From: Paraspadella gotoi
Taxonomy: Eukaryota > Animalia > Chaetognatha
Assembly: GCA_051294375.1 (NCBI GenBank)
Contig: JBJCIZ010000239.1
Location: 663,178-727,177 of the forward strand
DNA: 64,000 bases
Direction of reading: 5' to 3'
A program made the position numbers and the translations under genes. Each line of letters opens with the position of its first letter. Within the stretch, counting starts at the first letter, position 1. The notes beneath the pieces are model-generated. The model was not told the origin of the DNA. It was given only the letters and a program-made list of their open reading frames with translations, and did no database searches. Shown one piece after another: positions 12,449 to 53,677 of this stretch.

Positions 12449-12508
<60 letters not shown>

Positions 12509-12654: not shown

Positions 12655-12742
<88 letters not shown>

Positions 12743-15346: not shown

Positions 15347-15397
<51 letters not shown>

Positions 15398-15510
15398 ACG
15401 GAGTGGGGTGTTTTAGAAAAAGAAGAGAGTTTTAAAAAAAGCACGAATTGAGAAAAGCTTTTTCGCATAAATTTTTTTTACACACAAAGCCATCGGCTTA
15501 CTTTCGGAAA

Positions 15511-15548
<38 letters not shown>

Positions 15549-18152: not shown

Positions 18153-18194
<42 letters not shown>

Positions 18195-18200
18195 AGGAGC

Positions 18201-18232
<32 letters not shown>

Positions 18233-18654: not shown

Positions 18655-18863
18655 CACTTTTTCCCGGGATCTCTGGCGAGAACAGATCTACTCGACAGAA
18701 TCGACAAGACACGACATTAAGGCCGATTTTAAACCCTCCGAAAAATACGGGTCTATAAAAGGGGAGGACAAAACATAAAAACGATAAAAAATATATATCG
18801 CCGCCCGCCCGATGTAGTAATTAAAAAGGGAATGGCATTTCTTCGCTTTCTCTCTCCTCTCTC

Positions 18864-18899
<36 letters not shown>

Positions 18900-19764: not shown

Positions 19765-19846
<82 letters not shown>

Positions 19847-19928
19847 AAGAAGGAGAAAAAGTGAGATGGAGAGAAAGAAGAGAGAGAGAGAGACGAGAGA
19901 GAGAGAGAGAGAGAGAGAAGAGAGAGAT

Positions 19929-19992
<64 letters not shown>

Positions 19993-20782
19993 GAGGAGAG
20001 AAGAATGGGAGATGAATTTAGTAAAACAGCCAAACAGTATAATAGATAGGTATCCATATAGTAACTCTCACTTAACAAATTAATTGATTTAGAACCGGAG
20101 GCTTTTTTTTTCGAATCATCAAATTTTTTTCCCATTAAAAATTCAAAATAATAAAAAAAATGTTTTTTTATTTTTTTCCTAAAAACGAGACGAGATTAAT
20201 GTTCATTTTTTGGGGAGGAATTCTGGTCGGCTGGCGGCCTTCGACGGAAATTTATGGCTTCTAAAATATTATTGAAATCGATGGACAACTTATCCAAAAC
20301 TGGTTGTACTTATCCTATGGAAAAATTATAGATTATCTGTTTTACGTGTTAGATTAAAAATTAAAATGAATAAAGAAAGTCGAGTATATTTGACATAAGT
20401 ATTAAATTTAACTATTATATATTTAATTTTTAATAACGTAATGGGGACATTGATGTTAGTGTAATATTTAATGTAGCCGAATTACTAAACTAAATCTTCA
20501 GTATTACATTTAATACTAAAATAATCTAATGACCTATACATTAATACATTAATACCCCCTGAAAAAAAAAATTTAGCATTGCCCGAGAATAAAAAAATTC
20601 GGGTGAGATAAATGAAATAAAATAGAAATAAAATCGGGATAAAAATAAAATTGTCTTCCACCGAAAGGAAATCTCGCCTTTTTGACGCGGAGAGAAAAAA
20701 AAGACGAAAACGATCATCCTTCAGACCAGAAGTTTGACTCTTTTTGGAGGAGAGAGAGAGAGAGCAGCAGAGAGAGAACAAG

Positions 20783-20872
<90 letters not shown>

Positions 20873-21163
20873 GTAATAGATTCTGATTTATTTATATCTT
20901 TGATGTCTCCTTTTTTTTTTGGAAGAGACGTTTTTTCCCGGCGACGGACGACGCACGACGACGAAACGACGAACGACGGACGACCGATCGACGAGACGAA
21001 CAAAACGGACGACGATGATTATTACTGACACTAAAAAAAAACTTGATTTTGAATTTTTATTCGATGATTTTAGGTTAATTTTTCTTTTCTTAATTATTAT
21101 GTCTTATTCTGCTGTTCTGTCCTCCGGTCTTTATTCTCTTATTTCTCACTTCTCTCACTCTCT

Positions 21164-21223
<60 letters not shown>

Positions 21224-21367
21224 ATCTCTCTCTCTCTCTTTCGTTTTTCTTTCTTTTTCTTTCTGTTCTTTCTTTCTTTCTTTTCTTTCTTCTTTCTTTC
21301 TTTCTTTTCTTTTCTTTGTTTCTTTCTATTTTCTTTCTTTCTTTTTTCTATTTCTTTCTATAATTTA

Positions 21368-21458
<91 letters not shown>

Positions 21459-24070: not shown

Positions 24071-24116
<46 letters not shown>

Positions 24117-24229
24117 ACGGAGTGGGGTGTTTTAGAAAAAGAAGAGAGTTTTAAAAAAAGCACGAATTGAGAAAAGCTTTTTCGCATAAATTTTTTTTAC
24201 ACACAAAGCCATCGGCTTACTTTCGGAAA

Positions 24230-24267
<38 letters not shown>

Positions 24268-26871
24268 GCTCTCTGCTCTCTCTCTCTCTCTCAACTCCGT
24301 CCTATCCTCTCCTTGCTTCTTATTGACTAAGCGATCGAGAAATTTGATCTGGGATTAGAGATTTCTCTTGTCTTGACGAATCTTTTAAGACCTTTTCGCT
24401 TTGTCGCCGAAGGATAGAGCTGAGACTAAAGGAGAGAGAGAGAGAGAGAGGAGAGAGAGAATGAAACTTTCCCTTGCCGAATATTTCGTGTGAAAGGTAA
24501 ACTTTTTTTCAAATTTAACTAGGAATATAATTTTTTTTTTTAAATTCCTTTTCTTTATTTTTAAAAAGGAAAGAGTCATCCGCGATCATTTTTAGTATAG
24601 ACTTGGTAGTCAAGTAATACATTTAGGTCCCTTATTTCTTTGAGTATATCGCCGCTAATTGTTGGGGATTTAGATAAAAAGTTATTCCTCTTTGATATGA
24701 TCTTCATTCTAGAGAGGTTGCTAATCAGGGGTGGGCCTTTTAATTAAGAAGGGTCCCTTATTTAAGATATCCCGCTCGTTTGCTGTGGTTTAGAAAATAT
24801 AAAAATGCTTTTTCAGGTGTCAACTTTTTATCGTTGTACAAGATAGAAATTGCTTATTTTGAAGTGGCCGCTTAATTCTAAAAGGCTAAATGGCTGATAT
24901 TTTACGTGATATGGTTGCTTCAACATTCAAAAAAATTTTCAATATTTAAAGTGATCTCTCATTGAAGTGGCAATGAATTTGGAAAATGCCCCCTAATTAG
25001 AAAGTGTATATTTTTCATTTAAGGTCGTCCCCTCTTTAAAGTTGTCGCTCACATGTTGAGATGACCCCTTAATATCTAAATTGAAACTCCCGCTGGAAAT
25101 TTTGATTGAATCGAGTTTGGATCGACAAGCGACATAAGAGAAGAAATCATAGAGAAGAGGAATTCAAGCGTAAACAAAAAAAAGAATCTAGATGAAAAAA
25201 AAAAGGAAATGAATAAATGAATGAATGAATGAATCGCACATGATTTTTTTTTGTTGAAAGCTTAAAATCAGAGAAGATATAGTGTAAGAAGATATAACTG
25301 TAAGATATACTGTAGAACACTGTAGATATTACTGCGTAAAACTGTAAGATATACAGTAGAACTGTAAAACTGTAAGTAAAGTAAACAAGTTTTGAGAAAC
25401 AATGTCGGGTCTGCCTTACGATAATTAATTAATTAATTAATCAATGTTAATTAACTTTATTTAAATATGTAATAACTCTAATTTTTAAATTTATATTCAA
25501 CTTATCATCATGATGTCCTTAAAAATTGGGTTAGAACAGTTATTAATATGTTTTTGTTTTGCATTTTATCAAAAACAAAAGCAAATTCCTTTATTTTATT
25601 TTATGTCTCCTTGTACTCTCTCAGCTCTCCACTCTCTCTCTCTCTCTCTCTTCTTTTTATGCAATTGCGACGATCCTTATGCTTTTAAGAAATTTTTTTA
25701 ACGTTGCATCATTTTTTTCACATTAAATTAATTAATTAATTAACAAATTAATTAATTAAAACATTTATTAGTAATCATTAAATATTAAAGATTCAAGATA
25801 TGTGAACTTTATGTTTTTTCCATCTAAACTCATTCCACTGGCAGCAAATTCCGTCAAAACTTTATATAATTATTATATAATTAATAAATATTTAAAAGCT
25901 TCAGTGCAACAACCCAATTGAACTAAATCAAAAAATTTACATTGAAAATCGATTTGTAGTAAAAGGAAAAAGGATTTTAAAGAGAACTAGGAGGTGAGAA
26001 AGTGTTCAATTTTGGCCCGCTTACTAGATATTAGGCCGGAAACAGGTTGAAAAACTTGAAGTTATCATCAAATGGTTAAATGGTCCTCAAATGGTTAAGC
26101 GACTATTAAATAATATGAAATTGAAAAATAATTTTTAAAATTTTTGCTTCATCAATTTTTTTTATTAGATTCTGATAGAGCTTTAAAAAGTTAGATAAAG
26201 TTATTAATACAACTTTTTTTTGTTTTATTTATGAAAATTAAAAAAAAATTATAAATTCGCGCCAATAATGATGATGATGATAATTTTTAAGGTTTTTTCT
26301 ATTTTTAACCAATTTATTGGTCAAAATTTGAATGAAAAATTATAGTACTTAAACTTTCCATTTAAACTTCTTAGCTCTACAAGAACCCTGTTAAAATATT
26401 TCCGTGTTTTCAAGTTCCCAAAAATCGTATGCTCTTTTTGCTAGGAACGTTTACTATATATCTAAGTGAAGAAACTTACCTTTTGTGAGAGGAAAAAAAA
26501 AAAACCGATCAAGTCGAATACTAGACGGACGCATCGTATTGCAGAGCCAACGCGAGAAAAAACCTGTCAAAACCAGAAGACAAGACGGCAATCAAAGGCT
26601 AAATGTTGAGACGTTATTTAGTTGTCATATCTATGAAAGTAAGAAAGGCAAAATCCCGATATTGATAAATTTTGTAGTAATAAATTTTGAAAATTTTCTT
26701 TTCGCCCAAAGAAAAACAGAAGGATGATCCATTTTCAATTGTATACCAAAAATGAAAGTGATTCATTTTTTCGAAAAAATAAATGTTTGTTTTGATTATA
26801 GCGGCTAAAAAAATGATTTAAGAATATTACTTGCGTTTATATTTGTAGAAGATAGAAATAAAGAGAGAGAA

Positions 26872-26913
<42 letters not shown>

Positions 26914-26919
26914 AGGAGC

Positions 26920-26951
<32 letters not shown>

Positions 26952-27374
26952 TAGAGAGAGAGAGAGGAGAGAAAGAAAGAAAGAAAAAAGAAAAGAAGAG
27001 AGAAAAGGAAAAGAGAGAAAGAAAGAAAGAAAGAAAGAAGAAGACGAGAAAGAAAGAATGTCCAGAGTCGTAAAACTGTAAAAGATATTCTTTTATAAGA
27101 AACAAAAGAAGGAAAGCCTTGCAAAGAGGTTGAGTAATTTCTCTACTTTTTTTTTTCTCTCTCTTCTTTCCATCAATCAGTCAAGCGATCCGTTCGCGCC
27201 TTGTCCTTCCCGTCCATACACTCTGGACGTTTATAATCCGATAACAATATTTTAAAGAATGATGCGTGTTAAGTTTTTTTTCGTGTTGCGTCGCGTCGAT
27301 GGTCCAACTTTTGATGTTTCTTTTCTTCTTCCTCCTCCTCCTCGTTCTTCTTCCCTCCTCCTCCTTTTCTTTGC
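18655..27374 (+). repeat. 8.7-kb tandem duplication, unit 2
   Basis: Matches unit 1; both units end at ...ctccttttctttgc. Confidence 0.95.
22621..23086 (-). pseudogene. Decayed gypsy integrase fragment (duplicate of 13905-14370)
   Basis: Identical copy inside the tandem duplication. Confidence 0.75.
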
Positions 27375-27389
27375 GAGAGAGAGAGAGAG

Positions 27390-28111
27390 AATGGAGATGA
27401 ATTTAGTAAAACAGCAAACAGTGAGAAATAAGATAGGTATCCATTATTAGTAACTCTCACTTAACAAATTAATTGATTAGAACCGGAGGCTTTTTTTTTC
27501 GAATCAATCAAATTTTTTCCCATTAAAAATTCAAAATAATAAAAAAAATGTTTTTTTTTATTTTTTCCTAAAACGAGACGAGATTAATGTTCATTTTTTG
27601 GGGGAGGAATTCAGAAGTCTCGCTGGCGGCCTTCGACGGAAATTTATGGCTTCTAAAAATATTATTGAAATCGATGGACAACTTATCCAAAACTGGTTGT
27701 ACTTATCCTAGGAAAAATTATAAGATTACTTGTTTTACCGTGTTAGATTAAAAATTTAAAATGAATAAAAAAGTCGAGTATATTTGACATAAGTATTAAA
27801 TTTAACTATTATATATTTAATTTTTAATAACGTAATGGGGACATTGATGTTAGTGTAATATTTAATGTAGCCGAATTAACTAAACTAAATCTTCAGTATT
27901 ACATTTAATACTAAAATAATCTAATGAACCTATACATTAATACATTAATACCCCCTGAAAAAAAATTTAGCATTGCCCGAGGAATAAAAAAATTTCGGGT
28001 GAAGATAAAATAGAAATAAAATAGAAATAAAATCGGGAATAAAAAATAAAATTGTCTCCCACCGAAAGGAAATCTCGCCTTTTGACGTCGGAGAGAAAAA
28101 AGAGAAAACAG
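27390..28111 (+). repeat. Fourth copy of module D
   Basis: Matches 6588-7320, 11289-12000 and 20004-20715; ends at an N gap. Confidence 0.9.
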
Positions 28112-30966: not shown

Positions 30967-33200
30967 ATCGTCCCTCCTTCATAACCGTCTGTTGCCAACT
31001 CTGCAATTTAGAAATATATTGACGTCCGATAAATGATCCTCAGATTTTATCGTCTCTGATTGGTCATTCGCCGCGATTTCAGCCAATGAGAGAAGACTTA
31101 GACATTCGTGGTGCTTGTCCGTCGGCCCCATGACTTTTAGTTCCATCCTTTGTCTCCGAGCGCCGATGGCACCGTCGAGTTAACGTCGCTCGGAAATCTT
31201 TTTACGGAGTCCATCCTAATTAATTTGAAATTGTTCAAGAATCAAGAATCTTGACATTTAAGATTCCTATAAATTTTGATTAAATTTCATACGTAATAAA
31301 TTAACAATTTCCCGCTATAATACGGTTTGTCAATTTACAAATAAATTATCTACACTGTAGATTCTACAGTATCTTGGATTCGATCTTTAAAAAGTCTATA
31401 TATATCACGAGCTTCTTCCAAGCAAAACTATGCAACCATTGCGACCTTTTAATCTAGACTATTTTTGTCACTATGTATGTCAAAAAACTTTTTAACGTCC
31501 TTTCAAATCTTTAATGAACCGTGACATCCCCTCTACGAAATTGACACGAAATTGACATGAATTGGACATTTTCTTCAATGACACAACAACCCTAACTATT
31601 TCTCACATAATCTCCCCCTATTGTCTTTTCAATTTTTTTCTTCTTCCAAGATTTTTCTCCTTTGTTCTCTCGTAGACCGAGCGATCGTCCGTCCTACGGT
31701 CCGTTGCATTTTTTTTAAGGGGAGAGAGAGGGAGCTCTCTTTTCCGAGAGTGCCCCAATTTCTGTTTTTTATCCAAGAATTTAGTATTAATTTAATATTT
31801 AACCTAAACTGACGCTTTTGTCTATGGTTGGATCGCGTCATTCGGCGTCCCAACCACCGTTACGACTGACAGAGGCTCGCAATTCTTGTCCTCAACATGG
31901 ACCCAACTCCTCGAATCGTGGGGAATCTCCGATAATTTANNNNNNNNNNNNNNNNNNNNNNNNNACGAGGGCTTACCACATGCAGTCTAATGGACTGGTC
32001 AAGCGGTTTCATCGTCGCCTGAAGGAGTTTTTGATCGCCTAGGCGCCTACACCCAGGGTAACTGATCTGGCGCTTTCCCTGCTCACTCCTAGTCATAAGA
32101 ACAACGCTTCAACCCGAGTAAGTGTACACTGTACAGCAAACCAATCGCCATTCCGGGCGACATCTTGCGGAGTCTATCAAGCGGCAACGCCAGCAAAGTT
32201 TGGGAGGTTTCTCGGTAAAAAGCGCCAGAGTCAAAGGCGTATATATATATATTGTTTTAAATATATAAACGAATTCCTAACCATATTTTTGCCATCCTCC
32301 ATAACCCATATTCGAATTTATAATCTTGACCCTAAATGGTATTCCGTAAACACTAACCAAGTCCTTAACTTTAATCACTAACACTTACCCAACCAATTCC
32401 CCATGCCTAATCTAAACCTAATCTTTAACTAAAAAAATTCGAATATTAGATAAAATGGGTCGTTCTAGAAAAATAAGGCCATCGAAGGCGGGTAGCGCGC
32501 GGAGATAGGACTGGCTCGGTTTTATTTTCATTTCGTTGAATGTTGGGGGAGTAGAGAGAGAGTAGAGAGAGAGAGAGAGAGAGAGGGAGAGGAGGACATA
32601 ATGTGTCGGTGCAGAGTTCCTCTTTTCGTTTCTGTTTGTCTATTGTTGTTTTTGGTTGTTTTTTTCGCGTTCGCGCGGAAACCGGTGAGACTGAGGTCGA
32701 AAGAAGGCGTCCCGTGGCGTTCTCTGACGGCGAAACGAGCGTGAAAATTGAAGAGGTAAACAAAAACAGGATTATTCCAACGTGTTGCTCTTGCGCCTTT
32801 TGGCATCATGGACTTAAGAATTTATTTTTACATGCTTGTTTTAGAGCTAATCTGCATAATACAATCGTTTTTTTTTCATAAAGATGAAGATAATCATGGC
32901 TATTTCCTAATCGTTACTTTATTCTATGCGATTGCGTAATTATATGATTCTAGTAAGCTCCTTTCAAACTTAAGTGGAACTGATAGAGAAGCGATTAGAC
33001 GGAACTGCCATGAAGATTTCCATCGCATTGAAACCGATCGAATTGATTGATTGTCCTGAGACCTGAAACAAAAGACGAGACGAATGGATGAGAAAAAAAA
33101 GTTTAAATCCTGAGTTTTGTTTGCTTTTTAAACGCGAAGTAAATATTGACGTGGGAAGATAAGGTGATCGTTTTTACGCGATGATAAGTTTGACTACGGA
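28809..33200 (-). repeat. Inverted, diverged copy of module F (12737-18620)
   Basis: Reverse-complement matches: gatcaaattcctcgagtcgcttagtcaataagaag (~30636) vs ~15598-15630; gacgtgggaagataaggtgatcg (~33148) vs ~12771-12795. Confidence 0.9.
31812..32240 (+). pseudogene. Decayed Ty3/gypsy integrase core fragment (best-preserved copy)
   Basis: Translates as AFVYGWIASFGVPTTVTTDRGSQFLSSTWTQLLESWGIS...TRAYHMQSNGLVKRFHRRLKEFLIA*, later YSKPIAIPGDIL. This is the typical rve pattern (WI.RFG.P..I.TDRG.QF; AYHPQSNGLVERFH) with the catalytic E replaced by K and in-frame stops. Confidence 0.85.
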
Positions 33201-43637: not shown

Positions 43638-44440
43638 TCTTTCCTTTACTGTCTTTCCTCTTCTCTCCTTTTCTCTCCCGGACTTCTTTCTTTTACTGTC
43701 TTCCCTATTCTCTCCTTTTCTCCCCAAAGACTTCTTTCCTTTACTGTCTTCCTATTCTCTCCTTTTCTCCCCCGAGACTTCTTTCCCGCTCTTCTTTCCT
43801 TTACTGTCTTTCCTCTTCTCTCCTTTTCTCCCCCAGACTTCTTTTCCTCTTACTGTCTTCCCTTTCTCCTCCCTTTTCTCCCCCGAGACTGCTTCATCCT
43901 CTTCTTCTTTTTTACTGTCTTTCCTCTTCTCTCCTTTTCTCCCCCAGACTTTTTCCTTTACTGTCTTCCCATTCTCTCCTTTCTCCCCGAACTTTCTTTC
44001 CCTCTTCTTGTCTTTCCTTCTCTCTTCTCCTATTCTCTCCCTTTTCTCCCCCGACTTCTTTCCTCCCTCTTCTTTCCTTTACTGTATTTTCCTCTTCTCT
44101 CCTTTTATCCCCAGACTTCTTTCCATCCCTCTTCTTTCCTTTACTGTCTTTCCTCTTCTCTGCCTTTTCTCTCCCGGACTTTTTTCCTTTACTGTCTTTC
44201 CTCTTCTCTCCTTTTCTCCCCAGACTTTTTCTTCTCGTCTTTAACTACTGTCTTTCCTCTTCTCGTCCTTTTCTCTCAGCGAGACTTATCTTTCCTTTAC
44301 TGTCTTTCCTCTTCTCTCCTTTTCTCCCCCGGACTTCTTTCCTTTACTGTCTTCCCTAATCTCTCCTTTTCTTCCCCAGACTTCTTTTCTTCCCTCTTCT
44401 TTCCTTTACTGTCTTTCCTCTTCTCTCCTTTTCTCCCCCC
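43638..44440. repeat. ~45-60 bp minisatellite (tttcctttactgtctttcctcttctctccttttctcccccagacttc)
   Basis: About 15 tandem units anchored by ttactgtctt. Confidence 0.92.
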
Positions 44441-44963
44441 TCACCTCCCTTTCTTCCCCTTTTCCTCCAAACTTCATTCCTCGTTGTTTGCATATAAAAC
44501 CATCATTCACTCTCCCGGCTCAAGGTTCGAGCTTTATCCGCCGGGCACGCCTCGTTTCCATCTCCCCCGCTGCGAGCTCAAACTCTCTTCGATATATACA
44601 CCTTTCTCCGTTTTTTTCTTCGGTTGCGCCGCGAGCACTCGCGGTGATACTCTTTTTTTTGGTCAGTCGGTCAGAATTTGAAGGGCTGAAATTTTTGATC
44701 GATTGGTCAATACAAATCTTTCTTTTTTTGTTGCGTTGAGAGTAATTACGAAGTTACAGATCTGCTCAAAAAAAGTTTAAGCTTTGAACCCCCTACTATC
44801 TCGCTTGTCGGTTGTCCTATTAATTAAATGTTAGATTAAATATTATTGAGGCTGTGCTAAAATAAAAAAAAAGGATCAAAATTGTGACTTACAATCTTCT
44901 TTTTTTGTGAAAAAAAAAATTGTATCCATCTTTGTTTTATTTTTTTTTGTTTGTTTTTTTACC

Positions 44964-45040
44964 ATGGAAACTTTAAAACAGCTAAACCCCCCAAAAAAGC
45001 TGCAATTGTTGAGTTTTGGAAGACGGGTTTGTCAAGATAG
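44964..45040 (+). pseudogene. Tc1 transposase N-terminus, first part
   Basis: METLKQLNPPKK/(frameshift)AAIVEFWKTGLSR*, continuing at 52829 as IAQQL, giving the Tc1 paired-like G.S..EIA..L motif. Confidence 0.75.
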
Positions 45041-45373
45041 CATTTAAGTAAGCAGACAGGGATTTCAATATGAAACCAAGTGGAATTTTATTATCAGAAA
45101 ATAGACAAGAGAAGACGGTGTCAATTTTCAAACAGAGTGAATCAAAGCAGAAACAGAGGCTATTTATAATGGCGCAAGTAGACGAAGCCAGTTTCCTCTT
45201 CGGAATCCTCCTCTTCCTCTTCTGGAACCTTCTTTTCCTCTTCCGGAAACTATTGTTCCTTTTCTGGATTTGGCTTCCAAAATCCTTCGAAAATCATTCC
45301 AGAATCTTCTTCCTCTTCCGGAATCCTCTCCTTAATCCTTTCCTCTGTTTCCGGGTTTCATTCATCTGTGATG
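45041..45373 (-). repeat. 3' LTR (~333 bp)
   Basis: Begins 2 nt after the PPT. Contains TATAAATA (45161-45168) and AATAAA (45087-45092) on the minus strand; distal 132 bp duplicated at 52695-52827. The U3 boundary is inferred from the PPT only. Confidence 0.75.
45220..45323. promoter_or_regulatory. Heat-shock element cluster in LTR U3
   Basis: TTCtgGAAccTTC (45220-45232) and TTCcaGAAtcTTC (45297-45309), plus TTCcgGAA at 45241 and 45316; 50-150 bp upstream of the LTR TATA box. Confidence 0.6.
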
Positions 45374-45375
45374 CG

Positions 45376-45387
45376 TCCCCCCTCCTC
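45376..45387 (-). other. Polypurine tract (PPT)
   Basis: GAGGAGGGGGGA on the minus strand, between the pol stop codon (45782) and the LTR. Confidence 0.75.
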
Positions 45388-45781
45388 AGACGACGGCGTA
45401 CGTGGTCAGTCGGTAGCCGAGTGAGTGCTGTTTTGTAATTTTTTGTTTTTGTTCCTTTTTTTATTATCTGAGAAGGGTGAGGCGTTTTTTTTTGCTATTG
45501 TCATCGTCGCGAATTTCCTCTTGGCGATTCCATGGTTGTAAGAGAAAATCGGTCCCCTTTGTTCTCTATATTCCCGATCTACTTAGTACAATATTGATTT
45601 GGTATCCTTTTGAAAGATTGTATCGTTGTTGTCGTCATTTTGGAAGAGATTTTTTTTTTGTGATTTTCTTTAGTTTTACGAAATTTGGTTTTTTAATTTT
45701 TAGTTGTTTATTTGTTTTGGTTTCTACAGCTGCGGTTTTTATCTATGACTAATTTTACATTTTCCTTGTGTGGGTGTCGAG

Positions 45782-48700
45782 TTAGCGCGCTGCCTCCCCC
45801 ACATGCAGCTTTAGCCGGCGCCTGTGGTATTTCATGTTTTTCCCGGCGATTGAAACCACGTAATGGTTTCCGTCTCTCTCGATCACCTTATGGGGGCCGG
45901 AGTATATCCGTTTGACCTTGTTTTCTGTTGGTGCTGCACTGGACATGATAAGGTCACGTCTGGTAAGCACCAGGTCGCCCACTTTGATCTCCTGGGGGCG
46001 CCTGTAAGGATTTGTCCTTGCTGATTGGCGAAAAAGTTTTTCTCTCTGTTCTGCCAGCTTTTCTTGTGCTTTTTCTTGCTTGTCTGCCCTTTGTCGGATG
46101 AAGTCAATGAGGTTTCTCTTAGTATAGTCGTCTGCGCTCTCAACAATTCTAGGTCTGTGTCCAAATTGTATTTCATAAGGCGACATGTCTGTCTTCCAAC
46201 CGACAATGGGTGTGGCATTCAGGAGCAGCATAAGATGTGGGATTTGTTCTAGCCATTTTCTAGGTTGGTCTTCTACAGCCTTGCGCAGAGCCTGGCGGAT
46301 TCGGCCAATGTCCCTTTCGGCTCTGTTGCTGTCTTTCCTTCCCACAAGCACCCGCCTGCTGACTGTATCAAGCAGGTTTAGAATTGACGTCATCGCAGTG
46401 CCATTGAGCTGAGTGGCGCCATCAAAATTGACCTCAAGGTATGCGCCATGTTGTAGAAAAATCTTTTCGTCAAGAGCCTTGACTATGGTTGCTGCATCTG
46501 CTCGGCGCAGTGGAATTGCCCATGTGTAGGCAGATGCATTGTCTGATGCAACTAACATGTAATGGAATCCTGCAGCTGGCGGGAGATGCATCACATCAAT
46601 GCTTAGAGACTCCCATGGGGCGATGGCCAGGTTGGGTGCTGATGGAGTCTCGTTGTTTCTTTGTCCATCGGTTGCTTTTGCGCAGTTGTCGCAGTTCCTG
46701 ACGCACCTTGCTGCGGCTGTTGATAGTCCAGGGGCTGAAATGTACTGGGCAGTGATAAATGCCGTTCTATCTCGACCTGGGTGTCCAAGGTGTTTGTGCA
46801 GTTTTGTTGTTATCTCCTCAGCTCGTGTTGGTGGAACAACGAACTTGGTTGTGGGGGTGTCACCTTTGAAGCCCTTGATGACTAGGATTCCATTGTCAGT
46901 GACATCAAGATCGGGGAAGCAGTTTGACAGGTATCTTTCCGTGATAGTTCGCCTCTTCTGCATTTTTTCTTCAAGTTTCCTCCTTGCTTGTTCACGGTCC
47001 CCTTTGATTAGAGCATCTACCATTAACTTGATAGTTTCATCCTCCTTCTGCCACTTCTTGACCTCAGCAGCTATAGGTATCATCCCATCAACTTTTCCCT
47101 GGGGTCTGGTGGCTTCCTCAGCCATTTCTGCCTCAGTTGCATCAATGTCGGCTTCAAGGGTGCTGTCGATCATTAATTCACCCCTTGCCCCTGGCCAATT
47201 TGTATTGATGGTCTCAATGGCTGCACTGCTTTTCTCTTCTCTGGGGCAGGGCTCTGGTGGTGAAGGAGGCTCTTGGGTCTGAGTTTGGAGGCTTGTTTCT
47301 ATTTGGATGTTAACAAGGTCTTCTGGTAGGGTATTGATATGATGGGTGTTGACCTGTAGGTGTCTCGGTCTTTCCAGTTTTTCAGGTTGTTTGAGGGTTG
47401 CTACTTCGATGGTTTGAACTGGTCCATTGTGAATAGGGCGTTGCTGCAGCTGGTTGATTAGACTGACTTGGCCAGTTATGGTCCGGAAAATCCTCATTTC
47501 TCTGTCGCAATTGCCTGCATCGTACACTCTTTCAAATTTACAGCCAGCCTCTTGTGTAGAATCCTCGTCCATCATGATGATCCTGATGCCTGTCATCTCA
47601 CTCAGGAGTTCCAGTTCAGGGTGACCAAGGCTCCAATCCTTGGCTGATATTGTCCTGATGAATGTGTTTACATCCTTTGTTTTGGGTTTGCCATAAAGCT
47701 TCATCATATTGTCTCTTCTCTCGGCAAATCTTTGTCGTACAAATTCAAAGAACTTTGCCCTGAAAGCCTTGGTTTCCTCCAGGAGGGTCTGCGCCATTAG
47801 TGCAAGTGTGGGGGCATGCCCTGTTACCAGGTCTAAGTGATCTGGTGTGCCGTAACCCTCCACTGGGTTTTCAGCAAAACCTGGCTCATATTCCCCATTC
47901 ACGTCGAATCCAGCAGGGAAGAAGGGCGTATCTAGTGGGGTGACCTGACCCTGTTCTGTGAAGCGGGTGAGAAAGTCAGCCGGATTTTCTGCACTCTTGA
48001 CAAGGATGACCTCTTTTGGTTGGCACTCCTGGCGGATTTCTGTAATCCATCTCAAAACATTCGTGGGGAGCAGTTGCTGCTTGTCATGTTGAAGATCCAT
48101 AACCCTCTTGAAGTATTGAGAATCTGTAACGAGTGTAACCCTCCTGCCACAGGTGTATCCCTTGAATTTCCTAATCATCATGTTGAAGGCTAGGGTCTCG
48201 AGAATGTTGATATGTTTTATCCTGTATTCTTCCGGGAAAGACTTTGAATGGAAGGACAGTGGATATTCAATGCCATCGGCAGTAGCAGTTATTAATCCAC
48301 CCATTGCACTTGTGCTTGCATCTGCATAAATTCGATAGGTTCCATTCTTGATACGGACGTCATTTAAGAAATTCAGTCCGGGCGAGGCCTTGATTTCTTC
48401 TACCAGCTGCTGAAGCATTAGCAAGTGTTGGCTGGTTAGCTTGAAGTCCCTCTTATCCAATAGAGTTAGTGCGTGGAGGGGTTGGGCTATGTAGGAGAAG
48501 CGGTGGGTGAAGCATCTGTAATAGTTTAGTGATGCTAGCATTGCCCTCAGCTCTTTCTGGGTTTTGAGGGTCTTGAGTTTGACTTCTACCGCTTCCAGCT
48601 TCTCCTTTTGAGGCATGAGCTTGTTCTTGGAGATGCTGAACCCCAAGATCTTGATGTCCTCTTTCCGGAGCAAGACGCTTTTTGTCCATTTGAGGACCAC

Positions 48701-51700
48701 ATTCTCATCCCTGCATCTTTGAAGTAGGTATCGGAGTCTTTCTGCCATGTCCTCTGGTGATTTGGCTGTGAGGATTAGGTCATCAACATACACCAGAAAG
48801 CTTTTGACATCGGTTCCCAAGTCCTTAAAGATCTCGTCCAGGATGGCTTGGAGGACATTGACGCTATTGACACCTCCCATTGGCAGCTTATTCATCCANN
48901 NNNNNNNNCCAGCTCCGGCAAAGGTTGTGACAGGCTTGCACCTGTCCGTCAAGTTGACCTGATGGAAGCAAGCTAAGATATCCACGGAGCATTGCAGCTC
49001 ATGCGGCTTGTATTGCTCTAAGATGGATGTAATTGTTTGGGGTTCGGTAGCGTATGTGGAGATATTGTTGTTGACTGTTGAGAGATCGCAGATGAGCCTC
49101 CACTGCTTGGCAAAAGTCTCGTCATTCATTTCGTCTTGGCCTTCGGATATATGTCCTGGCTTCTTTATAAGAAAAGCATTTGAATATGCCTCATTCCTTG
49201 TTCTTGACACGATGCCAGCCTTCTCATAGACCTCAAGGTACCTTTTTAAGGCTGCCTTCTTGACTGGCCCCTGATTTACAAATTTCGGTTTTGGGAGGTC
49301 GTCGTCAGTGTATCCTAGATCCACCTTATAGTTTAGAAAACCTTCCTTGCAGTCATTGATGGTCTCTCCAAAAACGTCGCGAAATTCCCACACTATTTCC
49401 CATACTAGTGGGGCTTTTTCCTTTAGACTTGGATCCACATCTTTGAAGGGTTTTAAGAAGGCCTCTTTTCCACGGTTGTCGTGCTTTTGTCGCCTTTTTT
49501 GGCGGGCCTCCTCAACTGCTTTTAGTTCCTCCAGGGTGGGTTTGTGGCGGACTATGGTAGTAGCTGGAATGTGATCTTTTCTGACTTTCCTTAGGAGAGG
49601 CTTTTCTCCGGTTAGGTCAGCTTGAACCGGTTCTGCTGTGGCTTCAGTTTCAAGTCCAAGGTCCATTTTGGCATCATTGGTTATGAGTGGGCGTGCCTGG
49701 CCCCATGGCCCTGGTTCAGCATCAATCTCCACTCCTTCCCTCAGTTGATTGCCATCGGCAATGTGGATACTGCTTCCATTCTTGGATTCCACAATCCACC
49801 TTGTTCCTGCTAGTGTTTTCCNNNNNNNNNNGCTGGATGTGATTTTAGCTCTTCCTTCAGCATTGAATTCGGCATGTAGAGGTACAGTGGTGTACTCATC
49901 CACGCTTCCATGCGCCAGCCACCTTGCTGCTTTGAGTGCCTCATATTTGTCTCTGAAAAGATGGGTAACAGGCTTGTTCCCCATTGAGGCAACTTGTAAG
50001 TCACTCCTTTGGTTGGATGGCTGAACAACCCATAATTGTTCTGGGGGACCAGGATTGGTGATTGCTGTTCCAATTATGATGTCCTGGTCATTTTCATCTG
50101 CCGAGACATAAAAGACGGTACGGAGCACCCACTTCTGGAACATCACTCGCAGGTTTATCCTTTCAGTCAAGGTTATGGAGCCAGTTGCTGTAGACAGGTG
50201 CAATGGGGTTCCATGGTAAATGTTGCCTGAGAGGGACCATTTTTCAATGAATTTTCTTGGGATCGTGTTGATGGAGGCGCCTGTGTCATATAAACAGCTG
50301 GCTGGGGCTCCCGCAATTACTGCTGGGATATAGCTGTTTTTTCCAGTGTGACAGGCCTTTCCAGTGTCATCCCTCGGTTCTGGTCCTTCATTTCCATTTA
50401 TTATGTTGGTGATCCTTTCAGGAAGACTGGGCATCTCCTTTTCATCCTTAGTGGTCTCTGAGGTGGCTTGTGGAGTGAGGAAGAACTCTGGCTGGTGGCA
50501 CTCCAGCTCCACCCGCCTGATGGTTGCCTGATGAAGAGATTCGCCCATTTGTTCCCCAGCTACGATTTGGTAGGTTGGGTTGTTTAAGGTTCCAGTGGGT
50601 CGAAGCTTCCTAAGGCTTGGCTTCTCCCCACGTTTGACTGGGTTTGGCCTATTCTTTTGTTTGTTTGCTTGGCCAGCGTCCCCGGTTGGGCTTGGTTTGG
50701 GTTCTAGAGTTTGGCAAGGATGTGGGTTGAGCTCCTGGCTTAGGCTTGTGGGGCTTAAGTTGACCGTAGGGCGCGGTTTTGGATGCCGATCCTCTTCCCT
50801 ACTTGCTCTTCTGAATAGCTTGGCGCAGGCTTTGGACCTTGTGATGATGGCCCTCCTGCCAGAGTTATCCATTTCTCCCCACTCTTTCCAGCCTAATTTA
50901 TGCAGGTGTTTGCTGGCGAGGGCCAGCTCCTTTGCTTCAAGAGGTTTGAACAGTTTGAACATTCGAGATGCTGTTGATTTTCCNNNNNNNNNNTTTGCTA
51001 TTTCAGCAATTGATTTTATTTTTATATTTTGATTTTTGTTGACACCTTGTGTGTTTACTCCCATGATTTTTTTTCCAAGTGTTTGATATGTTTCTTTTAA
51101 TTGTTGTTGTAGTTCTTTTTCAATCCTTGCCCTTTTGTTTAAAACACGGCCATCATCTTTTTTGGCATCAAGTTCATGGGACAATTGAATGTCCCGTCTT
51201 TGTCCAAACAAGGGGCCTTTCTTGCCTTTTCTCTCTATAAGCAAGTTGTTTTCCCTTTTACTTTTCCATTCATGGTTTTCATTGTATGCCTTCTTTTTAT
51301 ATGAGCATTCAGAGCTGCGTCGCTCTTGGCGTTCTTGGTGGTGGTATTGGGTAGTCGGATTTTGCCTGGCTAGCGTCTTTAGCTCCTCCATGTTTTCTTT
51401 CAGGTTTTTGAGTTTCTGGAGCGTTGAACCCTGGTAAAAGGCACTGGCATCGGAGATTGGGTCCTGAACAGTGCAGTCTTCAAGCACCAGGGNNNNNNNN
51501 NNNNNNNNNNGGTTGTCCTCTGAGATTGTTTTTCGGATGGCATTGTTGGGATTTCTTTTGAGGTATCCACGGAGTTTGTATTCAATGATTTTTCCAAGTT
51601 GTCGGAGTTCTCCTTTCTCCAGCATCTGGGTCCACTCTAGTGTTTCAGATGTGATGCCGGGGACATAGGGTTCAAGGGCCTCCACAAGCATTTGGGCCAC
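45782..51700 (-). CDS. pol: Gag-Pol polyprotein (C-terminal gag, aspartic protease, RT, RNase H, extra domain, integrase)
   Basis: 1972 aa. Protease LYDTGAS...DIIIG (~50060-50340); RT WRLICD, VDILACFHQ, LPMG, YVDD (48779-48790); RNase H IYADAS...LE...TDS...NPADFLTR (~47960-48340); integrase HKHLGH..CVRNCDNC, SIDVM, NFDGA, RAERD and GPY/F-like YSGPHKV. True start is upstream of the called ORF. Confidence 0.96.
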   Translation of the reverse strand: MAQMLVEALEPYVPGITSETLEWTQMLEKGELRQLGKIIEYKLRGYLKRNPNNAIRKTISEDNXXXXXXXLVLEDCTVQDPISDASAFYQGSTLQKLKNLKENMEELKTLARQNPTTQYHHQERQERRSSECSYKKKAYNENHEWKSKRENNLLIERKGKKGPLFGQRRDIQLSHELDAKKDDGRVLNKRARIEKELQQQLKETYQTLGKKIMGVNTQGVNKNQNIKIKSIAEIAXXXXGKSTASRMFKLFKPLEAKELALASKHLHKLGWKEWGEMDNSGRRAIITRSKACAKLFRRASREEDRHPKPRPTVNLSPTSLSQELNPHPCQTLEPKPSPTGDAGQANKQKNRPNPVKRGEKPSLRKLRPTGTLNNPTYQIVAGEQMGESLHQATIRRVELECHQPEFFLTPQATSETTKDEKEMPSLPERITNIINGNEGPEPRDDTGKACHTGKNSYIPAVIAGAPASCLYDTGASINTIPRKFIEKWSLSGNIYHGTPLHLSTATGSITLTERINLRVMFQKWVLRTVFYVSADENDQDIIIGTAITNPGPPEQLWVVQPSNQRSDLQVASMGNKPVTHLFRDKYEALKAARWLAHGSVDEYTTVPLHAEFNAEGRAKITSSXXXXKTLAGTRWIVESKNGSSIHIADGNQLREGVEIDAEPGPWGQARPLITNDAKMDLGLETEATAEPVQADLTGEKPLLRKVRKDHIPATTIVRHKPTLEELKAVEEARQKRRQKHDNRGKEAFLKPFKDVDPSLKEKAPLVWEIVWEFRDVFGETINDCKEGFLNYKVDLGYTDDDLPKPKFVNQGPVKKAALKRYLEVYEKAGIVSRTRNEAYSNAFLIKKPGHISEGQDEMNDETFAKQWRLICDLSTVNNNISTYATEPQTITSILEQYKPHELQCSVDILACFHQVNLTDRCKPVTTFAGAXXXXWMNKLPMGGVNSVNVLQAILDEIFKDLGTDVKSFLVYVDDLILTAKSPEDMAERLRYLLQRCRDENVVLKWTKSVLLRKEDIKILGFSISKNKLMPQKEKLEAVEVKLKTLKTQKELRAMLASLNYYRCFTHRFSYIAQPLHALTLLDKRDFKLTSQHLLMLQQLVEEIKASPGLNFLNDVRIKNGTYRIYADASTSAMGGLITATADGIEYPLSFHSKSFPEEYRIKHINILETLAFNMMIRKFKGYTCGRRVTLVTDSQYFKRVMDLQHDKQQLLPTNVLRWITEIRQECQPKEVILVKSAENPADFLTRFTEQGQVTPLDTPFFPAGFDVNGEYEPGFAENPVEGYGTPDHLDLVTGHAPTLALMAQTLLEETKAFRAKFFEFVRQRFAERRDNMMKLYGKPKTKDVNTFIRTISAKDWSLGHPELELLSEMTGIRIIMMDEDSTQEAGCKFERVYDAGNCDREMRIFRTITGQVSLINQLQQRPIHNGPVQTIEVATLKQPEKLERPRHLQVNTHHINTLPEDLVNIQIETSLQTQTQEPPSPPEPCPREEKSSAAIETINTNWPGARGELMIDSTLEADIDATEAEMAEEATRPQGKVDGMIPIAAEVKKWQKEDETIKLMVDALIKGDREQARRKLEEKMQKRRTITERYLSNCFPDLDVTDNGILVIKGFKGDTPTTKFVVPPTRAEEITTKLHKHLGHPGRDRTAFITAQYISAPGLSTAAARCVRNCDNCAKATDGQRNNETPSAPNLAIAPWESLSIDVMHLPPAAGFHYMLVASDNASAYTWAIPLRRADAATIVKALDEKIFLQHGAYLEVNFDGATQLNGTAMTSILNLLDTVSRRVLVGRKDSNRAERDIGRIRQALRKAVEDQPRKWLEQIPHLMLLLNATPIVGWKTDMSPYEIQFGHRPRIVESADDYTKRNLIDFIRQRADKQEKAQEKLAEQREKLFRQSARTNPYRRPQEIKVGDLVLTRRDLIMSSAAPTENKVKRIYSGPHKVIERDGNHYVVSIAGKNMKYHRRRLKLHVGEAAR

Positions 51701-52570
51701 ATAGTCGGGGATGGAGGCTTTGTCCTTTTCCCTGACAGTTTCGAAGTTTTCTCTGGCAGCATTGACAAGGGCAATGCCGTATTGGCATGAACACGTGGAT
51801 CCACCTCGATCTTTGCCTCGGTGAGTGCTTCGGTGATTGTGATTGAGGATCCTTCACAGAGCTCGCGCAGTCCCAGCCACATAGATTGGTTGATAGGCAC
51901 AATAAACCTATTGACAACCTTGTCCCGAGCAAGGAGGGCGCGTAGTTGTTGATCAATTTTGGCAGGGGGTGTTTGGGAATCCTTGAAGGCCTCATAAAAG
52001 CTTCTCAAAAAATCTTCTGGTGATTCATCTGGCCTTCTTTTTTCCAATTTGATGGGGTATTCCACTAGAGTTAAAGAAGGTGGTTGAATCTCATTTTTTC
52101 TCCCAACAGTGTTGTTTCTGTGGGCGTGAAGCATGCTTCAAGGGATTGCTTCTTGAGGGGGTTGTAGGCCTTCTCTGGTTGGTCCACTCCAGTGGCACGG
52201 GTTGGATCACTTGGGGTGGAGCTGGTTGCGAGGTTCCAATCAATCTTGTTTTGTTTTTCACTTCATTGAATTTGGTCATCATGGTCGTCAACATATGATG
52301 AAGGTTGTCCATCTTGGAGCCGAGGGTATCTCCACTGGCTTTGACCTTCTGGCTCAGAATGGTGAGGTGTTGCTTGTTGGCCATATTTGCATCATCGACA
52401 ATCTTTAAGATTTGGCGAGTGTTTCTGCTTGGTCATTGTCCAATTGGCAGTTATCCCAGAGAGCTCCATCAAGCTTGAATGTTTGGAACTCCAATTTTTT
52501 CTGGACACTGCTACGTCTTCTGTGTTCGCGGCGCCCGTGACTGGCGCCTCCGCCCTCTCTTCCATCCCGG
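51637..52570 (-). pseudogene. gag: N-terminal gag region broken by about 3 frameshifts
   Basis: Overlapping minus ORFs 52392-52682, 52091-52384 and 51637-52134 tile from the PBS to the long ORF; coiled-coil stretch then ESPEDFLRSF capsid-like motif. Frameshifts may be long-read indels. Confidence 0.65.
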
Positions 52571-52676
52571 TTTGGGTGAAGGAATGTTGGGGGCAGAGTT
52601 GTTGTCCATCTTCTTTAGGGGTGGCGTAGTTGGTGATGTGGTAAGGCTTGTTTTTCTTGGAGACGTGGTGAGTCGA

Positions 52677-52694
52677 GTCCACTCCTGTTCACCA
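52677..52694 (-). other. Primer-binding site, tRNA-Leu-like
   Basis: TGGTGAACAGGAGTGGAC(TCGA) immediately follows the 5' LTR and resembles the complement of eukaryotic tRNA-Leu 3' ends (TGGTGTCAGGAGTGGGATTCGA). Confidence 0.75.
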
Positions 52695-52827
52695 CATTTA
52701 AGTAAGCAGACAGGGATTTCAATATGAAACCAAAGTGGAATTTTATTATCAGAAAATAGACAAGAGAAGACGGTGTCAATTTTCAAACAGAGTGAATCAA
52801 AGCAGAAACAGAGGCTATTTATAATGG
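52695..52827 (-). repeat. 5' LTR remnant (TATA-R-U5 only)
   Basis: 133-bp match to 45041-45172 that stops 4 bp beyond the TATA box, where Tc1 sequence resumes. Confidence 0.9.
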
Positions 52828-52828
52828 G

Positions 52829-53321
52829 ATCGCCCAACAGCTTTATTTTTCTCCTACAGCTATCTGCAGAGTTGTCAACAAATTTGAAGCAGCTGGAAAC
52901 CTTGGACGAGCTGTTGGAAGCAAGCGGCCTTGCACGTCCACAGAGAGCAAGGACGATGACCTGGAAAGTCTCGCAATTCAAGACTGTAAGGCTTCTGCAA
53001 GCCAGTTGAGAAAAAACAGTGAATAGGCGGCTTTTCATGGAGGATAAAGCTCCTGGATACAAAGTCAAAGCCCACCAAAAATTTTAAGAGGAAAACGGGA
53101 TGGAGGTGCTCGAAGGTTGGCTCAGAAACTCGCCTGACTGCAACATCATTGAAAATGTCTGGACAAGGATAAAAAGGGACATTTTGCAGTATAATACAAT
53201 GACAGTCGACAAAATCAAGAAAATTTTTATGCACCCTTCATATTTGCCCAGCCACTAAGACTCTCTCCCTTGTCGCATGGAAGCGGTGCTGAAAGCAAAT
53301 GGTGGTCCGACAATGTATTAA
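52829..53321 (+). pseudogene. Tc1 transposase remnant (HTH plus C-terminal catalytic part; middle deleted)
   Basis: IAQQLYFSPTAICRVVNKFEAAGNLGRAVGSKRP..., then from 53031 LFMEDKAPGY...WLRNSPDCNIIENVWTRIKR...DSLPCRMEAVLKANGGPTMY*, matching Tc1 QDNAP, SPDLNPIE.W and AVI...GG.T.Y motifs; two internal stops in the C-terminal frame. Confidence 0.92.
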
Positions 53322-53677
53322 CTAACTGTGTCCTAAAAAAATATTATTTTCCTTCAAATAACGAAATAAAATGCTTTTATCATAACTATTAAACTTTTTT
53401 TGAGCAGATCTGTACACTTTTTGGTCGGATGGTAAGACTGTCTGTCTCACAGTATCTTTTTCTATCTATCGGTCTGTCAGTTCGTCTGTTTAATTAAAGC
53501 TTAGCTAACAGAATACACAATGCCAAGCTATTTTTATAAGTAAATATTCTAAAAAAAAGATCAACATGATTTGGATACTTACGCATATTCCCTCCCTGGA
53601 AATACGATCACCGATCACGTAGATAAAAAGTAAAATCGGGGTAACACCATGGAATTTCAATTCCTCCATCTTTCCTT

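What the first reader, a model, noticed from the sequence alone, without database searches (positions are those of the whole stretch)
47455..47840. OTU-fold-like domain without catalytic residues inserted between RNase H and integrase
Seen: about 300 aa separate the RNase H end (NPADFLTR) from the integrase N-terminal region. They include ~125 aa: LVTGHAPTLALMAQTLLEETKAFRAKFFEFVRQRF...VNTFIRTISAKDWSLGHPELELLSEMTGIRIIMMDE...REMRIFRTITGQVSLI. Known: OTU deubiquitinases follow DGNCLFRA.A..L......LR....++....F...Y+..+....W.G..EL..LS......I.+...I.+......HY.S+; OTU-like proteases are cargo of Helitrons and of RNA viruses that counter ubiquitin-based defence. Inference: the helical core and W.G..EL..LS..I.I block fit this pattern, but the Cys (TGHAPT) and His (TGQV) positions are substituted. 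This suggests a captured pseudo-deubiquitinase kept in frame, possibly as a ubiquitin or chromatin-binding tether for integrase or an anti-defence decoy. It is not a standard gypsy pol module.
Basis: partly seen in the sequence, partly recalled or inferred. Interest (0 to 1): 0.8.

Follow-up and report, generated by a model that had tools for sequence, protein, structure and literature searches.

The report
Dead deubiquitinase fold in retrotransposon Pol
A Gypsy-type jumping gene carries, right behind its RNase H, a conserved domain that is predicted to fold like a ubiquitin-cutting OTU enzyme but lacks the cutting residues, so it likely works as a non-cutting binding module on the reverse transcriptase, a cargo that my literature searches did not find described for this kind of element.

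Summary
A 128-aa domain (47456-47839, minus strand) lies in frame just after RNase H of a deeply divergent Gypsy pol. Its AlphaFold model (pLDDT 74) matches OTU deubiquitinases: the top 33 VIA rows are OTU-type (best Z 11.2; first unrelated fold 3.4). Sequence support alone is weak (Pfam OTU E 0.012, below cutoff). Fourteen metagenomic homologues (about 30-50% identical, three lineages with the window) carry it, two with RNase H directly upstream. The Cys column holds Pro/Leu in 9 of 9 rows and the His column Gln/Ser in 9 of 9. Paralogues in the same organism differ mostly synonymously (27 of 40 shown sites). So the fold is old, constrained and lacks the canonical active site. The integrase-tether idea is disfavoured: the domain is joined to RNase H by a conserved linker and to integrase by a variable one. 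Ubiquitin binding is untested. Best reading: a repurposed binding module on RT-RNase H. OTUs are known in Ginger1, Helentron and Polinton elements, and dead OTUs in cells; none was found reported in LTR pol. This scan earlier noted a Cys-less OTU in an algal gypsy (unchecked).

The parts
47456..47839 (-). Pseudo-OTU domain core (pol aa 1339-1466): five helices and four strands in the model of 47426-47890
   Evidence: Pfam OTU E 0.012; AF2 pLDDT 74.3, pTM 0.72; OTU structural matches; 14 homologues
47810..47812 (-). Pro at the column of the OTU catalytic Cys, first residue of the first helix
   Evidence: joint alignment with 14 intact OTUs; helix starts at residue 27; Pro in 8 of 9 rows, Leu in 1
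47468..47470 (-). Gln at the column of the OTU catalytic His, before the last strand
   Evidence: Gln in 3 and Ser in 6 of 9 rows
47615..47638 (-). DWxLGHPE block (OTU W-G box variant) with invariant Trp, Leu and His
   Evidence: W 13/13, L 13/13, H 13/13, D 12/13
47537..47566 (-). Hairpin tip with conserved Glu109, Cys117 and Lys118 (model numbering): candidate repurposed surface or relocated site
   Evidence: E 12/13, C 12/13, K 13/13; strands 102-109 and 117-123; spatial closeness to His90 inferred, not measured
47483..47485 (-). Invariant Arg five residues before the His column, where many OTUs have the aromatic residue that contacts the ubiquitin tail
   Evidence: R 9/9; aromatic in 8 of 14 reference OTUs; role of that residue from PMC3705208 passages
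47840..47962 (-). Conserved 41-aa linker from RNase H to the domain (GFDxxGxY motif)
   Evidence: 31-42% identity to P0003, P0012, P0013
47075..47455 (-). Variable 127-aa linker to integrase; likely holds the protease cut between RT-RNase H and integrase (inferred)
   Evidence: 1% aromatic, 49% P/Q/E/S/T/K; no significant match in relatives; skipped by a paralogous contig
47963..48346 (-). RNase H with its four acidic motifs
   Evidence: PF17917 E 2.6e-10; motifs located
48632..49087 (-). Reverse transcriptase core (YVDD)
   Evidence: PF00078 E 1.3e-16
50066..50329 (-). Aspartic protease (DTG)
   Evidence: PF13650 E 8.7e-6
45785..47074 (-). Integrase: N-terminal extension, H2C2 zinc finger (46673-46837), DDE core (46379-46615) with D-35-E spacing, GPH motif near the end
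   Evidence: PF17921 E 4.2e-8, PF00665 E 1.5e-4; motifs
51637..52432 (-). Gag-like coding region, split over different frames from the main ORF in this assembly
   Evidence: overlapping open frames; no Pfam hit; Gag identity is inferred from position
45041..45375 (-). 3' LTR (inferred extent; 45041-45172 is the part shared with the other end)
   Evidence: 133-bp direct repeat at 99.2%; 12-nt purine tract at 45376-45387
52695..52827 (-). 5' LTR remnant, apparently shortened at its outer end; followed directly by a TGG-starting primer-binding-like site (52677-52694)
   Evidence: no tRNA gene in the window to match it

Best explanation
The segment is a domain predicted to have the OTU deubiquitinase fold, fixed in frame behind RNase H in a divergent Gypsy lineage and lacking the catalytic Cys and His, and it likely stays on the reverse transcriptase-RNase H protein as a non-catalytic binding module rather than acting as a protease or an integrase tether. 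Steps: (1) shown: position, conservation in three lineages, loss of the canonical catalytic residues in every row that covers them, synonymous excess among paralogues. (2) Predicted: OTU fold. (3) Inferred: an ancestor captured an active OTU at the RNase H-integrase junction; the activity was lost once, before the three lineages split; the element's protease cuts downstream of the domain, in the variable linker. (4) Inferred: a new conserved surface (Trp86, His90, Glu109, Cys117, Lys118, Tyr123, Arg136 and the GFDxxGxY linker) binds a protein partner in the particle or the host cell, most likely not ubiquitin in the canonical S1 mode, and so stabilises or positions RT-RNase H during reverse transcription.
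For: Fold: AF2 on a 15-row alignment holding only family members, no templates, pLDDT 74.3; 37 of 37 listed Foldseek PDB rows are OTU/deubiquitinase entries; VIA top 33 rows OTU-type, best Z 11.2, rmsd 3.2 A over 136 residues, 12% identity, first unrelated fold Z 3.4 among 48,161 chains; two ESM Atlas queries gave OTU-bearing clusters at 0.90-0.92. No canonical site: Cys in 0 of 9 rows, His in 0 of 9 rows. Constraint: 32-43% identity in the domain against 48-53% in RNase H for P0003 and P0013; 28 of 40 shown paralogue differences at third codon positions and 27 of 40 synonymous, against 21% expected. Attachment to RNase H: conserved upstream linker, unalignable downstream linker; VLTRA motif directly after the RNase H end in 2 of 8 control Gypsy proteins, and a similar motif 26-35 aa after the domain's last strands in 5 relatives, plus one relative with a deletion there. 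Altered ubiquitin contacts: with PMC3705208. Precedent: Drosophila CG3251, a dead OTU, showed no ubiquitin binding (PMC4654579 Discussion).
Against: No partner was identified and no binding was shown. Sequence evidence for OTU ancestry is below thresholds (hmmsearch part; PDB sequence searches found no OTU). The catalytic columns come from a multiple alignment at about 10-15% identity plus the predicted secondary structure, not from a residue-level structural superposition. The cleavage-side argument rests on a recalled motif that 6 of 8 control proteins lack and that the window matches only loosely. Only 2 of 14 homologues are long enough to show RNase H upstream. The domain has no net positive charge, so nucleic-acid binding has no support. 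The conserved Cys117 and His90 leave a relocated catalytic site open. The 40 variant sites are the best-supported of 117, from pieces at least 80% alike, and are not independent.
Confidence: 0.5

Rival explanations
1. Ubiquitin or ubiquitin-like decoy/reader: the dead OTU still binds ubiquitin, a UBL or the ubiquitin machinery and shields Pol or the particle from ubiquitin-based defence, or guides it to ubiquitinated chromatin. The integrase-tether version is the less likely part (about 0.07).
For: OTU fold. Mobile elements often carry ubiquitin-related domains: Ginger1 and Helitron OTUs (PMC2836005), Polinton PolB OTU (PMC8502044), Burro gypsy MATH and SUMO-like domains (PMC6431247). The invariant residues plausibly lie on the face that binds ubiquitin in OTUs (inferred from topology). 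Ubiquitin receptor function is named as a likely role for inactive DUBs.
Against: The Cys loop, the W-G box spacing and the His-loop aromatic position all differ from intact OTUs. The CG3251 precedent lost binding along with catalysis. The domain appears tied to RNase H, not to integrase.
Confidence: 0.2
2. Structural passenger: the domain has no ligand; it is kept only because it packs against RNase H through the conserved linker and must fold for Pol to be stable and processed.
For: Many invariant positions are hydrophobic core or turn residues (L19, L29, L31, I81, L88, L96, I104). The upstream linker is as conserved as the domain.
Against: Polar residues are also invariant across lineages only 32-52% identical (H90, E109, C117, K118, R136), which fold alone rarely requires. 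The 8 nearest ordinary Gypsy proteins work without it, so a purely passive insert could be deleted.
Confidence: 0.15
3. Rewired enzyme or metal site: the canonical triad is gone but Cys117, His90 and Glu109 (or Asp85) form a relocated catalytic or metal-binding site, giving a new hydrolase or self-processing activity.
For: C 12/13, H 13/13, E 12/13, D 12/13. His90 starts a helix and Glu109 and Cys117 flank the following hairpin tip, so they could be neighbours (inferred). Some supposed pseudo-DUBs proved active through non-canonical residues (PMC10919355 passages).
Against: No coordinates were available to measure distances. Cys117 starts a strand rather than a helix, unlike papain-fold nucleophiles (helix rule in PMC10318531 passage). 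One row (P0006) has Phe at that column.
Confidence: 0.12
4. The domain is not OTU-derived; the match comes from a shallow-alignment model of a common alpha/beta arrangement.
For: Pfam score below cutoff; HHalign not above shuffles; single-sequence model failed (pLDDT 39.8); TM-scores only 0.5-0.64.
Against: Three kinds of search (Pfam, language-model features, structure) point to the same family; 28 of 28 VIA matches at Z 5 or more are OTU-type; the Cys-to-His column spacing is 114 residues against 97-129 in the references.
Confidence: 0.03

Closest known systems
Minimal OTU domains: nairovirus vOTU (PDB 7y5m, 6dx3, 3phu), yeast Otu1 (3by4), human OTUD1/2/3 (4bop, 4boz, 4bou)
   Same: Predicted fold and size (about 130-150 aa); VIA Z 9.9-11.2, effectively tied.
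   Different: No catalytic Cys or His; altered Cys loop, W-G box and His loop; 7-14% identity; fused inside a retrotransposon Pol. The donor cannot be told from these ties.
Cellular pseudo-OTUs: FAM105A/OTULINL, vertnin, Drosophila Otu and CG3251 (PMC3705208, PMC10318531 passages; PMC4654579 abstract and Discussion)
   Same: OTU fold with missing catalytic residues and presumed non-catalytic roles; FAM105A (6drm) matches at Z 8.0.
   Different: Those are host genes. Otu and CG3251 keep His and Asp and change only Cys to Ser; here both residues and their loops are changed.
Ginger1 transposases with C-terminal OTU, Helitron/Helentron OTU (PMC2836005, PMC6431247 passages), Polinton/adintovirus PolB N-terminal OTU (PMC8502044 passages)
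   Same: OTU domain fused to the mobilisation protein of a eukaryotic mobile element; Ginger1 has a Gypsy-like integrase.
   Different: Those are DNA elements without RT; the Ginger1 OTU lies after the integrase, and these domains are described as proteases. Here the domain lies before integrase in an LTR retroelement and lacks the catalytic residues.
Gypsy elements with cargo in pol: DAM-LTR retrotransposons (bioRxiv 10.64898/2026.05.21.726589, abstract and section 7 read), Burro/GYPSM1 (PMC6431247 passages)
   Same: A foreign domain in frame between RT and integrase (DAM-LTR); ubiquitin-related extra domains in a Gypsy polyprotein (Burro).
   Different: Different cargo; the DAM preprint has a section on preserved catalytic pockets and no mention of OTU or ubiquitin; no OTU named for Burro in the passages read.
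Deep-branching chaetognath Gypsy ESTs (PMC2678813, abstract, passages and section 8 read)
   Different: RT fragments only, no OTU mentioned; sequences were not compared here.

Membership tests
OTU deubiquitinases (Pfam PF02338) | OTU-type papain-like fold | tested here: met
   Predicted model only:
OTU deubiquitinases (Pfam PF02338) | Score at or above the Pfam gathering cutoff (23.3 bits) | tested here: not met
   16.5 bits, E 0.012; best family member E 0.0012
OTU deubiquitinases (Pfam PF02338) | Catalytic Cys at the start of the first core helix after a D-x-x-C loop | tested here: not met
   Pro 8, Leu 1 of 9 rows; Gly at the Asp column in 8 of 8. P0003 has a Cys two columns earlier where others have His/Arg.
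OTU deubiquitinases (Pfam PF02338) | Catalytic His at the start of the last strand | tested here: not met
   Gln 3, Ser 6 of 9 rows
OTU deubiquitinases (Pfam PF02338) | Aromatic His-loop anchor that contacts the ubiquitin C terminus (PMC3705208) | tested here: inconclusive
   Arg in 9 of 9 family rows, but only 8 of 14 references have an aromatic at the same spacing (5 of them close relatives) and two have Arg/Lys
OTU deubiquitinases (Pfam PF02338) | Isopeptidase activity on ubiquitin or UBL conjugates | not testable with these tools
   needs a bench assay
Pseudo-OTU (FAM105A / Otu-like, a functional class) | OTU fold with the canonical catalytic residues missing | tested here: met
Pseudo-OTU (FAM105A / Otu-like, a functional class) | Shown lack of activity | not testable with these tools
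   a conserved Cys and His elsewhere leave a relocated site open
Ty3/Gypsy LTR retrotransposons | pol order protease-RT-RNase H-integrase | tested here: met
Ty3/Gypsy LTR retrotransposons | Direct terminal repeats with primer-binding site and polypurine tract | tested here: met
   133-bp repeat at 99.2%, TGG directly inside one end, 12-nt purine tract at the other; one repeat appears shortened
Ty3/Gypsy LTR retrotransposons | TG...CA ends and a target-site duplication | tested here: inconclusive
   ends do not read TG...CA and no duplication is visible, but one end seems deleted
Ty3/Gypsy LTR retrotransposons | RT phylogeny inside a named Gypsy clade | not tested
   no tree built; nearest full-length pol proteins are only 22-25% identical
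Ginger1 DNA transposons | Integrase-like transposase with C-terminal OTU/Ulp1, terminal inverted repeats, no RT | tested here: not met
   RT and RNase H present, domain N-terminal to integrase, direct repeats; definition

The most novel reading that the evidence does not exclude
A deep-branching Gypsy lineage has rebuilt a captured deubiquitinase fold into a new active or ligand site (Cys117-His90-Glu109 region) on its reverse transcriptase, and uses it to intercept the host ubiquitin system: an anti-defence module of LTR retrotransposons with non-canonical OTU chemistry.
Probability: 0.12. Interest if true: 0.85.

Novelty: new variant of a known kind. Interest (0 to 1): 0.52.

Why it matters
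It adds the OTU fold to the cargo of LTR retrotransposon Pol and shows such cargo can be kept for a long time after the canonical chemistry is lost, below the detection limit of ordinary domain scans. The domain is small, well folded in prediction and has natural variants, so it makes a direct test possible of what a dead deubiquitinase fold does for a mobile element, and of whether ubiquitin acts against LTR retrotransposon particles. It is not a new class of element, and its function is unproven.

Tried and rejected
Complex prediction of the domain with a virus-encoded ubiquitin gave no verdict (score 0.00, alignments not used, controls not folded); it is not evidence either way. Single-sequence AF2 failed (pLDDT 39.8). 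PDB sequence searches with the domain, two profiles and P0012 found no OTU. HHalign and a home-made HMM from 14 viral OTUs (kept from 22 translated matches in 33 loci; rows without a downstream His motif and duplicates dropped) were not significant. A word-based search for longer proteins with the domain found none among 259 candidates. Two scans of metagenome contigs for DNA context found nothing, so the relatives' element structure and hosts are unknown. No whole genome was held, so copy number, true dN/dS and a survey for copies that keep Cys/His could not be done; the read-laying tables showed only 40 of 117 variant rows, none at the two catalytic codons, which proves nothing. No RNA holder was listed (X6 is only guessed to be RNA), so expression is unknown. 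PHROGs gave nothing useful for the linkers or the domain; Rfam found nothing in 44400-53200. Nucleic-acid binding was considered and not supported: net charge is near neutral. A weak similarity between the downstream linker and the domain's C-terminal half (E 0.42) was set aside as chance. PMC9940879 and PMC11943222 mention OTU only for host genes; PMC8557442 has no OTU in its main text.
Full report
Setting. The window is microsatellite-rich eukaryotic DNA. One long frame, 45782-51853 on the minus strand, gives 2023 aa without a stop. Pfam places protease at aa 509-596, RT at 923-1074, RNase H at 1142-1272, the H2C2 finger at 1673-1727 and the integrase core at 1747-1825. The DTG, YVDD, RNase H acidic and integrase DDE motifs are present. 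A 133-bp direct repeat at 99.2% identity bounds the element (45041-45172 and 52695-52827), with a TGG-starting site inside one end and a 12-nt purine tract at 45376-45387. The outer part of the 5' repeat seems deleted and the Gag region is split over frames, so this copy is young but probably not whole. Earlier unchecked notes of this scan call the host an animal, probably an arrow worm; I did not test this.

Observation. The gap from RNase H to H2C2 is 401 aa, against 72-200 aa in the 8 nearest full-length pol proteins, which are only 22-25% identical and have no OTU hit. The insert splits into a 41-aa upstream linker, a 128-aa globular core (47456-47839) and a 127-aa linker with 1% aromatic residues.

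Is it an OTU fold? Sequence alone is suggestive. OTU is the only Pfam hit (E 0.012, 16.5 bits, cutoff 23.3) and hits 5 of 15 family members. PDB sequence searches found no OTU, and HHalign against 14 intact viral OTUs was no better than shuffles. Two ESM Atlas queries returned OTU-bearing clusters of giant viruses and haptophytes at 0.90-0.92, where only 19-35% of members carry the family. Structure is clearer. With the 15-row family alignment and no templates, AF2 gave pLDDT 74.3 and pTM 0.72 (39.8 without alignment). All 37 listed Foldseek PDB rows are OTU or deubiquitinase entries (best E 4.3e-4). VIA against 48,161 chains gave 28 matches at Z 5 or more, all OTU-type; best Z 11.2, rmsd 3.2 A over 136 residues; the first unrelated fold is row 34 at Z 3.4. 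BFVD agrees. Nairovirus, yeast and human minimal OTUs tie, so the donor is not identified.

Is it conserved? phmmer over 1.84 billion representatives found 8 proteins at E 0.001 or better; a profile search added 6 (11 hits among 5260 candidates). All 14 are singletons from metagenome contigs under 2.5 kb (11 JGI, 3 ENA). With the window they form three groups that are 32-52% identical to each other in the domain. P0003 and P0013 show the RNase H end directly upstream; the other 12 start too late to show it. For these two, identity to the window is 48-53% in RNase H, 31-36% in the upstream linker and 32-43% in the domain. In the same organism, 20-26 contigs per run lie on the domain, one identical and the rest mostly under 90% alike. 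A 1627-nt contig spans RNase H and most of the domain. A 2700-nt contig of run X9 aligns over integrase (45798-47016) and, judged by equal length and depth, over the domain (47521-47830) at almost the same spacing, but not over the linker between. Of the 40 variant rows shown (of 117), 28 are at third codon positions and 27 are synonymous, against 21% expected for random changes. These rows are pre-selected and not independent, so this shows coding constraint but is not a dN/dS.

Is it dead? A joint alignment with the intact OTUs puts the catalytic Cys on Pro27 of the modelled segment, the loop Asp on Gly24 and the catalytic His on Gln141; the model has a helix starting at residue 27 and the last strand at 142, and the spacing of 114 falls within the references' 97-129. 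Cys is in 0 of 9 rows and His in 0 of 9 rows at these columns. P0003 has a Cys two columns before, and P0004 and P0007 one column after the His column; neither is shared. Loss in all groups that cover the columns points to one old loss. The columns rest on a low-identity alignment, not a superposition. Invariant or nearly invariant polar residues lie elsewhere: Asp85, Trp86, His90, Glu109, Cys117, Lys118, Tyr123, Arg136. Arg136 sits where many OTUs have the aromatic residue that contacts the ubiquitin tail (PMC3705208), although only 8 of 14 references show it at that spacing.

Which protein carries it? The upstream linker is conserved and the downstream one is not. A VLTRA motif follows the RNase H end directly in 2 of 8 control proteins, and a similar motif lies 26-35 aa after the domain's last strands in 5 relatives. 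I recall this motif as marking the RT/integrase junction in many Gypsy proteins; that role comes from no call. If so, the domain stays on RT-RNase H, which disfavours an integrase tether.

Mechanism. Best reading (0.5): a repurposed, non-catalytic binding module on RT-RNase H. Rivals: ubiquitin/UBL decoy (0.2), ligand-free structural passenger (0.15), relocated catalytic or metal site (0.12), not OTU-derived (0.03). The dead Drosophila OTU CG3251 showed neither activity nor ubiquitin binding (PMC4654579, abstract and Discussion), while some supposed pseudo-DUBs proved active (PMC10919355 passages).

Known systems and novelty. OTU domains are reported in Ginger1 transposases and Helitrons (PMC2836005 passages; PMC6431247 passages) and in Polinton PolB (PMC8502044 passages). 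Dead OTUs are known as host genes. Foreign domains between RT and integrase are known, for example DAM-LTRs (bioRxiv 10.64898/2026.05.21.726589, abstract and section 7). Searches for an OTU in an LTR retrotransposon returned no paper describing one among those I opened; most listed papers were seen only as listings. The library lacks most subscription papers and Repbase reports, and I read no supplements, so an entry there could have been missed. Within this scan, no look-alike sequence was on record; unchecked notes describe OTUs in Penelope-like, DIRS-like and other retroelements, a Cys-less OTU in an algal giant gypsy, and other dead enzymes at the RNase H-integrase junction.

Verdict. A real, constrained pseudo-OTU in a divergent Gypsy Pol: a new variant of a known kind (mobile-element OTU cargo, pseudo-DUB), function unproven. 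Interest 0.52.

Noticed in passing
window 45041-45375 and 52695-52827: The LTR ends do not read TG...CA: on the element's strand the repeat ends in ATG directly before the TGG primer site, and CAT lies a few bases after the purine tract. Contigs of other families show similar ends (loose ends). Possibly non-canonical CAT...ATG termini; inferred only.
   Followed up: partly
window 45171-45441: Many contigs of all four runs pile up on the inferred LTR, suggesting abundant solo LTRs or non-autonomous partners. Earlier notes describe miniature LTR elements in this genome; whether this element mobilises them was not tested. Rfam found no ribozyme in this LTR.
   Followed up: partly
window 49364-50059 (pol aa 600-830): About 325 aa separate protease and RT; the stretch has no Pfam or useful PHROGs hit and could hide a second degenerate domain (a dUTPase-like domain occurs at this position in other elements).
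   Followed up: partly
P0002, P0008, P0010, P0011, about 100-190 aa after the domain: The JGI group has a second conserved block between the pseudo-OTU and integrase that the window's element lacks; no convincing family hit.
   Followed up: partly
window 44750-45040 and 52828-53420: The element sits inside what looks like a decayed Tc1/mariner-type DNA transposon with a 31-bp inverted repeat (44751-44780 and 53389-53419); the family label is recalled from motif likeness, not from a call.
   Followed up: no
window about 10900-27600: An 8.7-kb near-identical tandem duplication (spacing 8715-8719): a recent duplication or an assembly artefact.
   Followed up: no
window 31800-32100 and 14060-14370 (repeated at 22780-23080): Short decayed integrase-like fragments of other elements; identification by eye.
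   Followed up: no
window 43638-44485: A pyrimidine-rich minisatellite with a period of about 47 bp next to the element.
   Followed up: no
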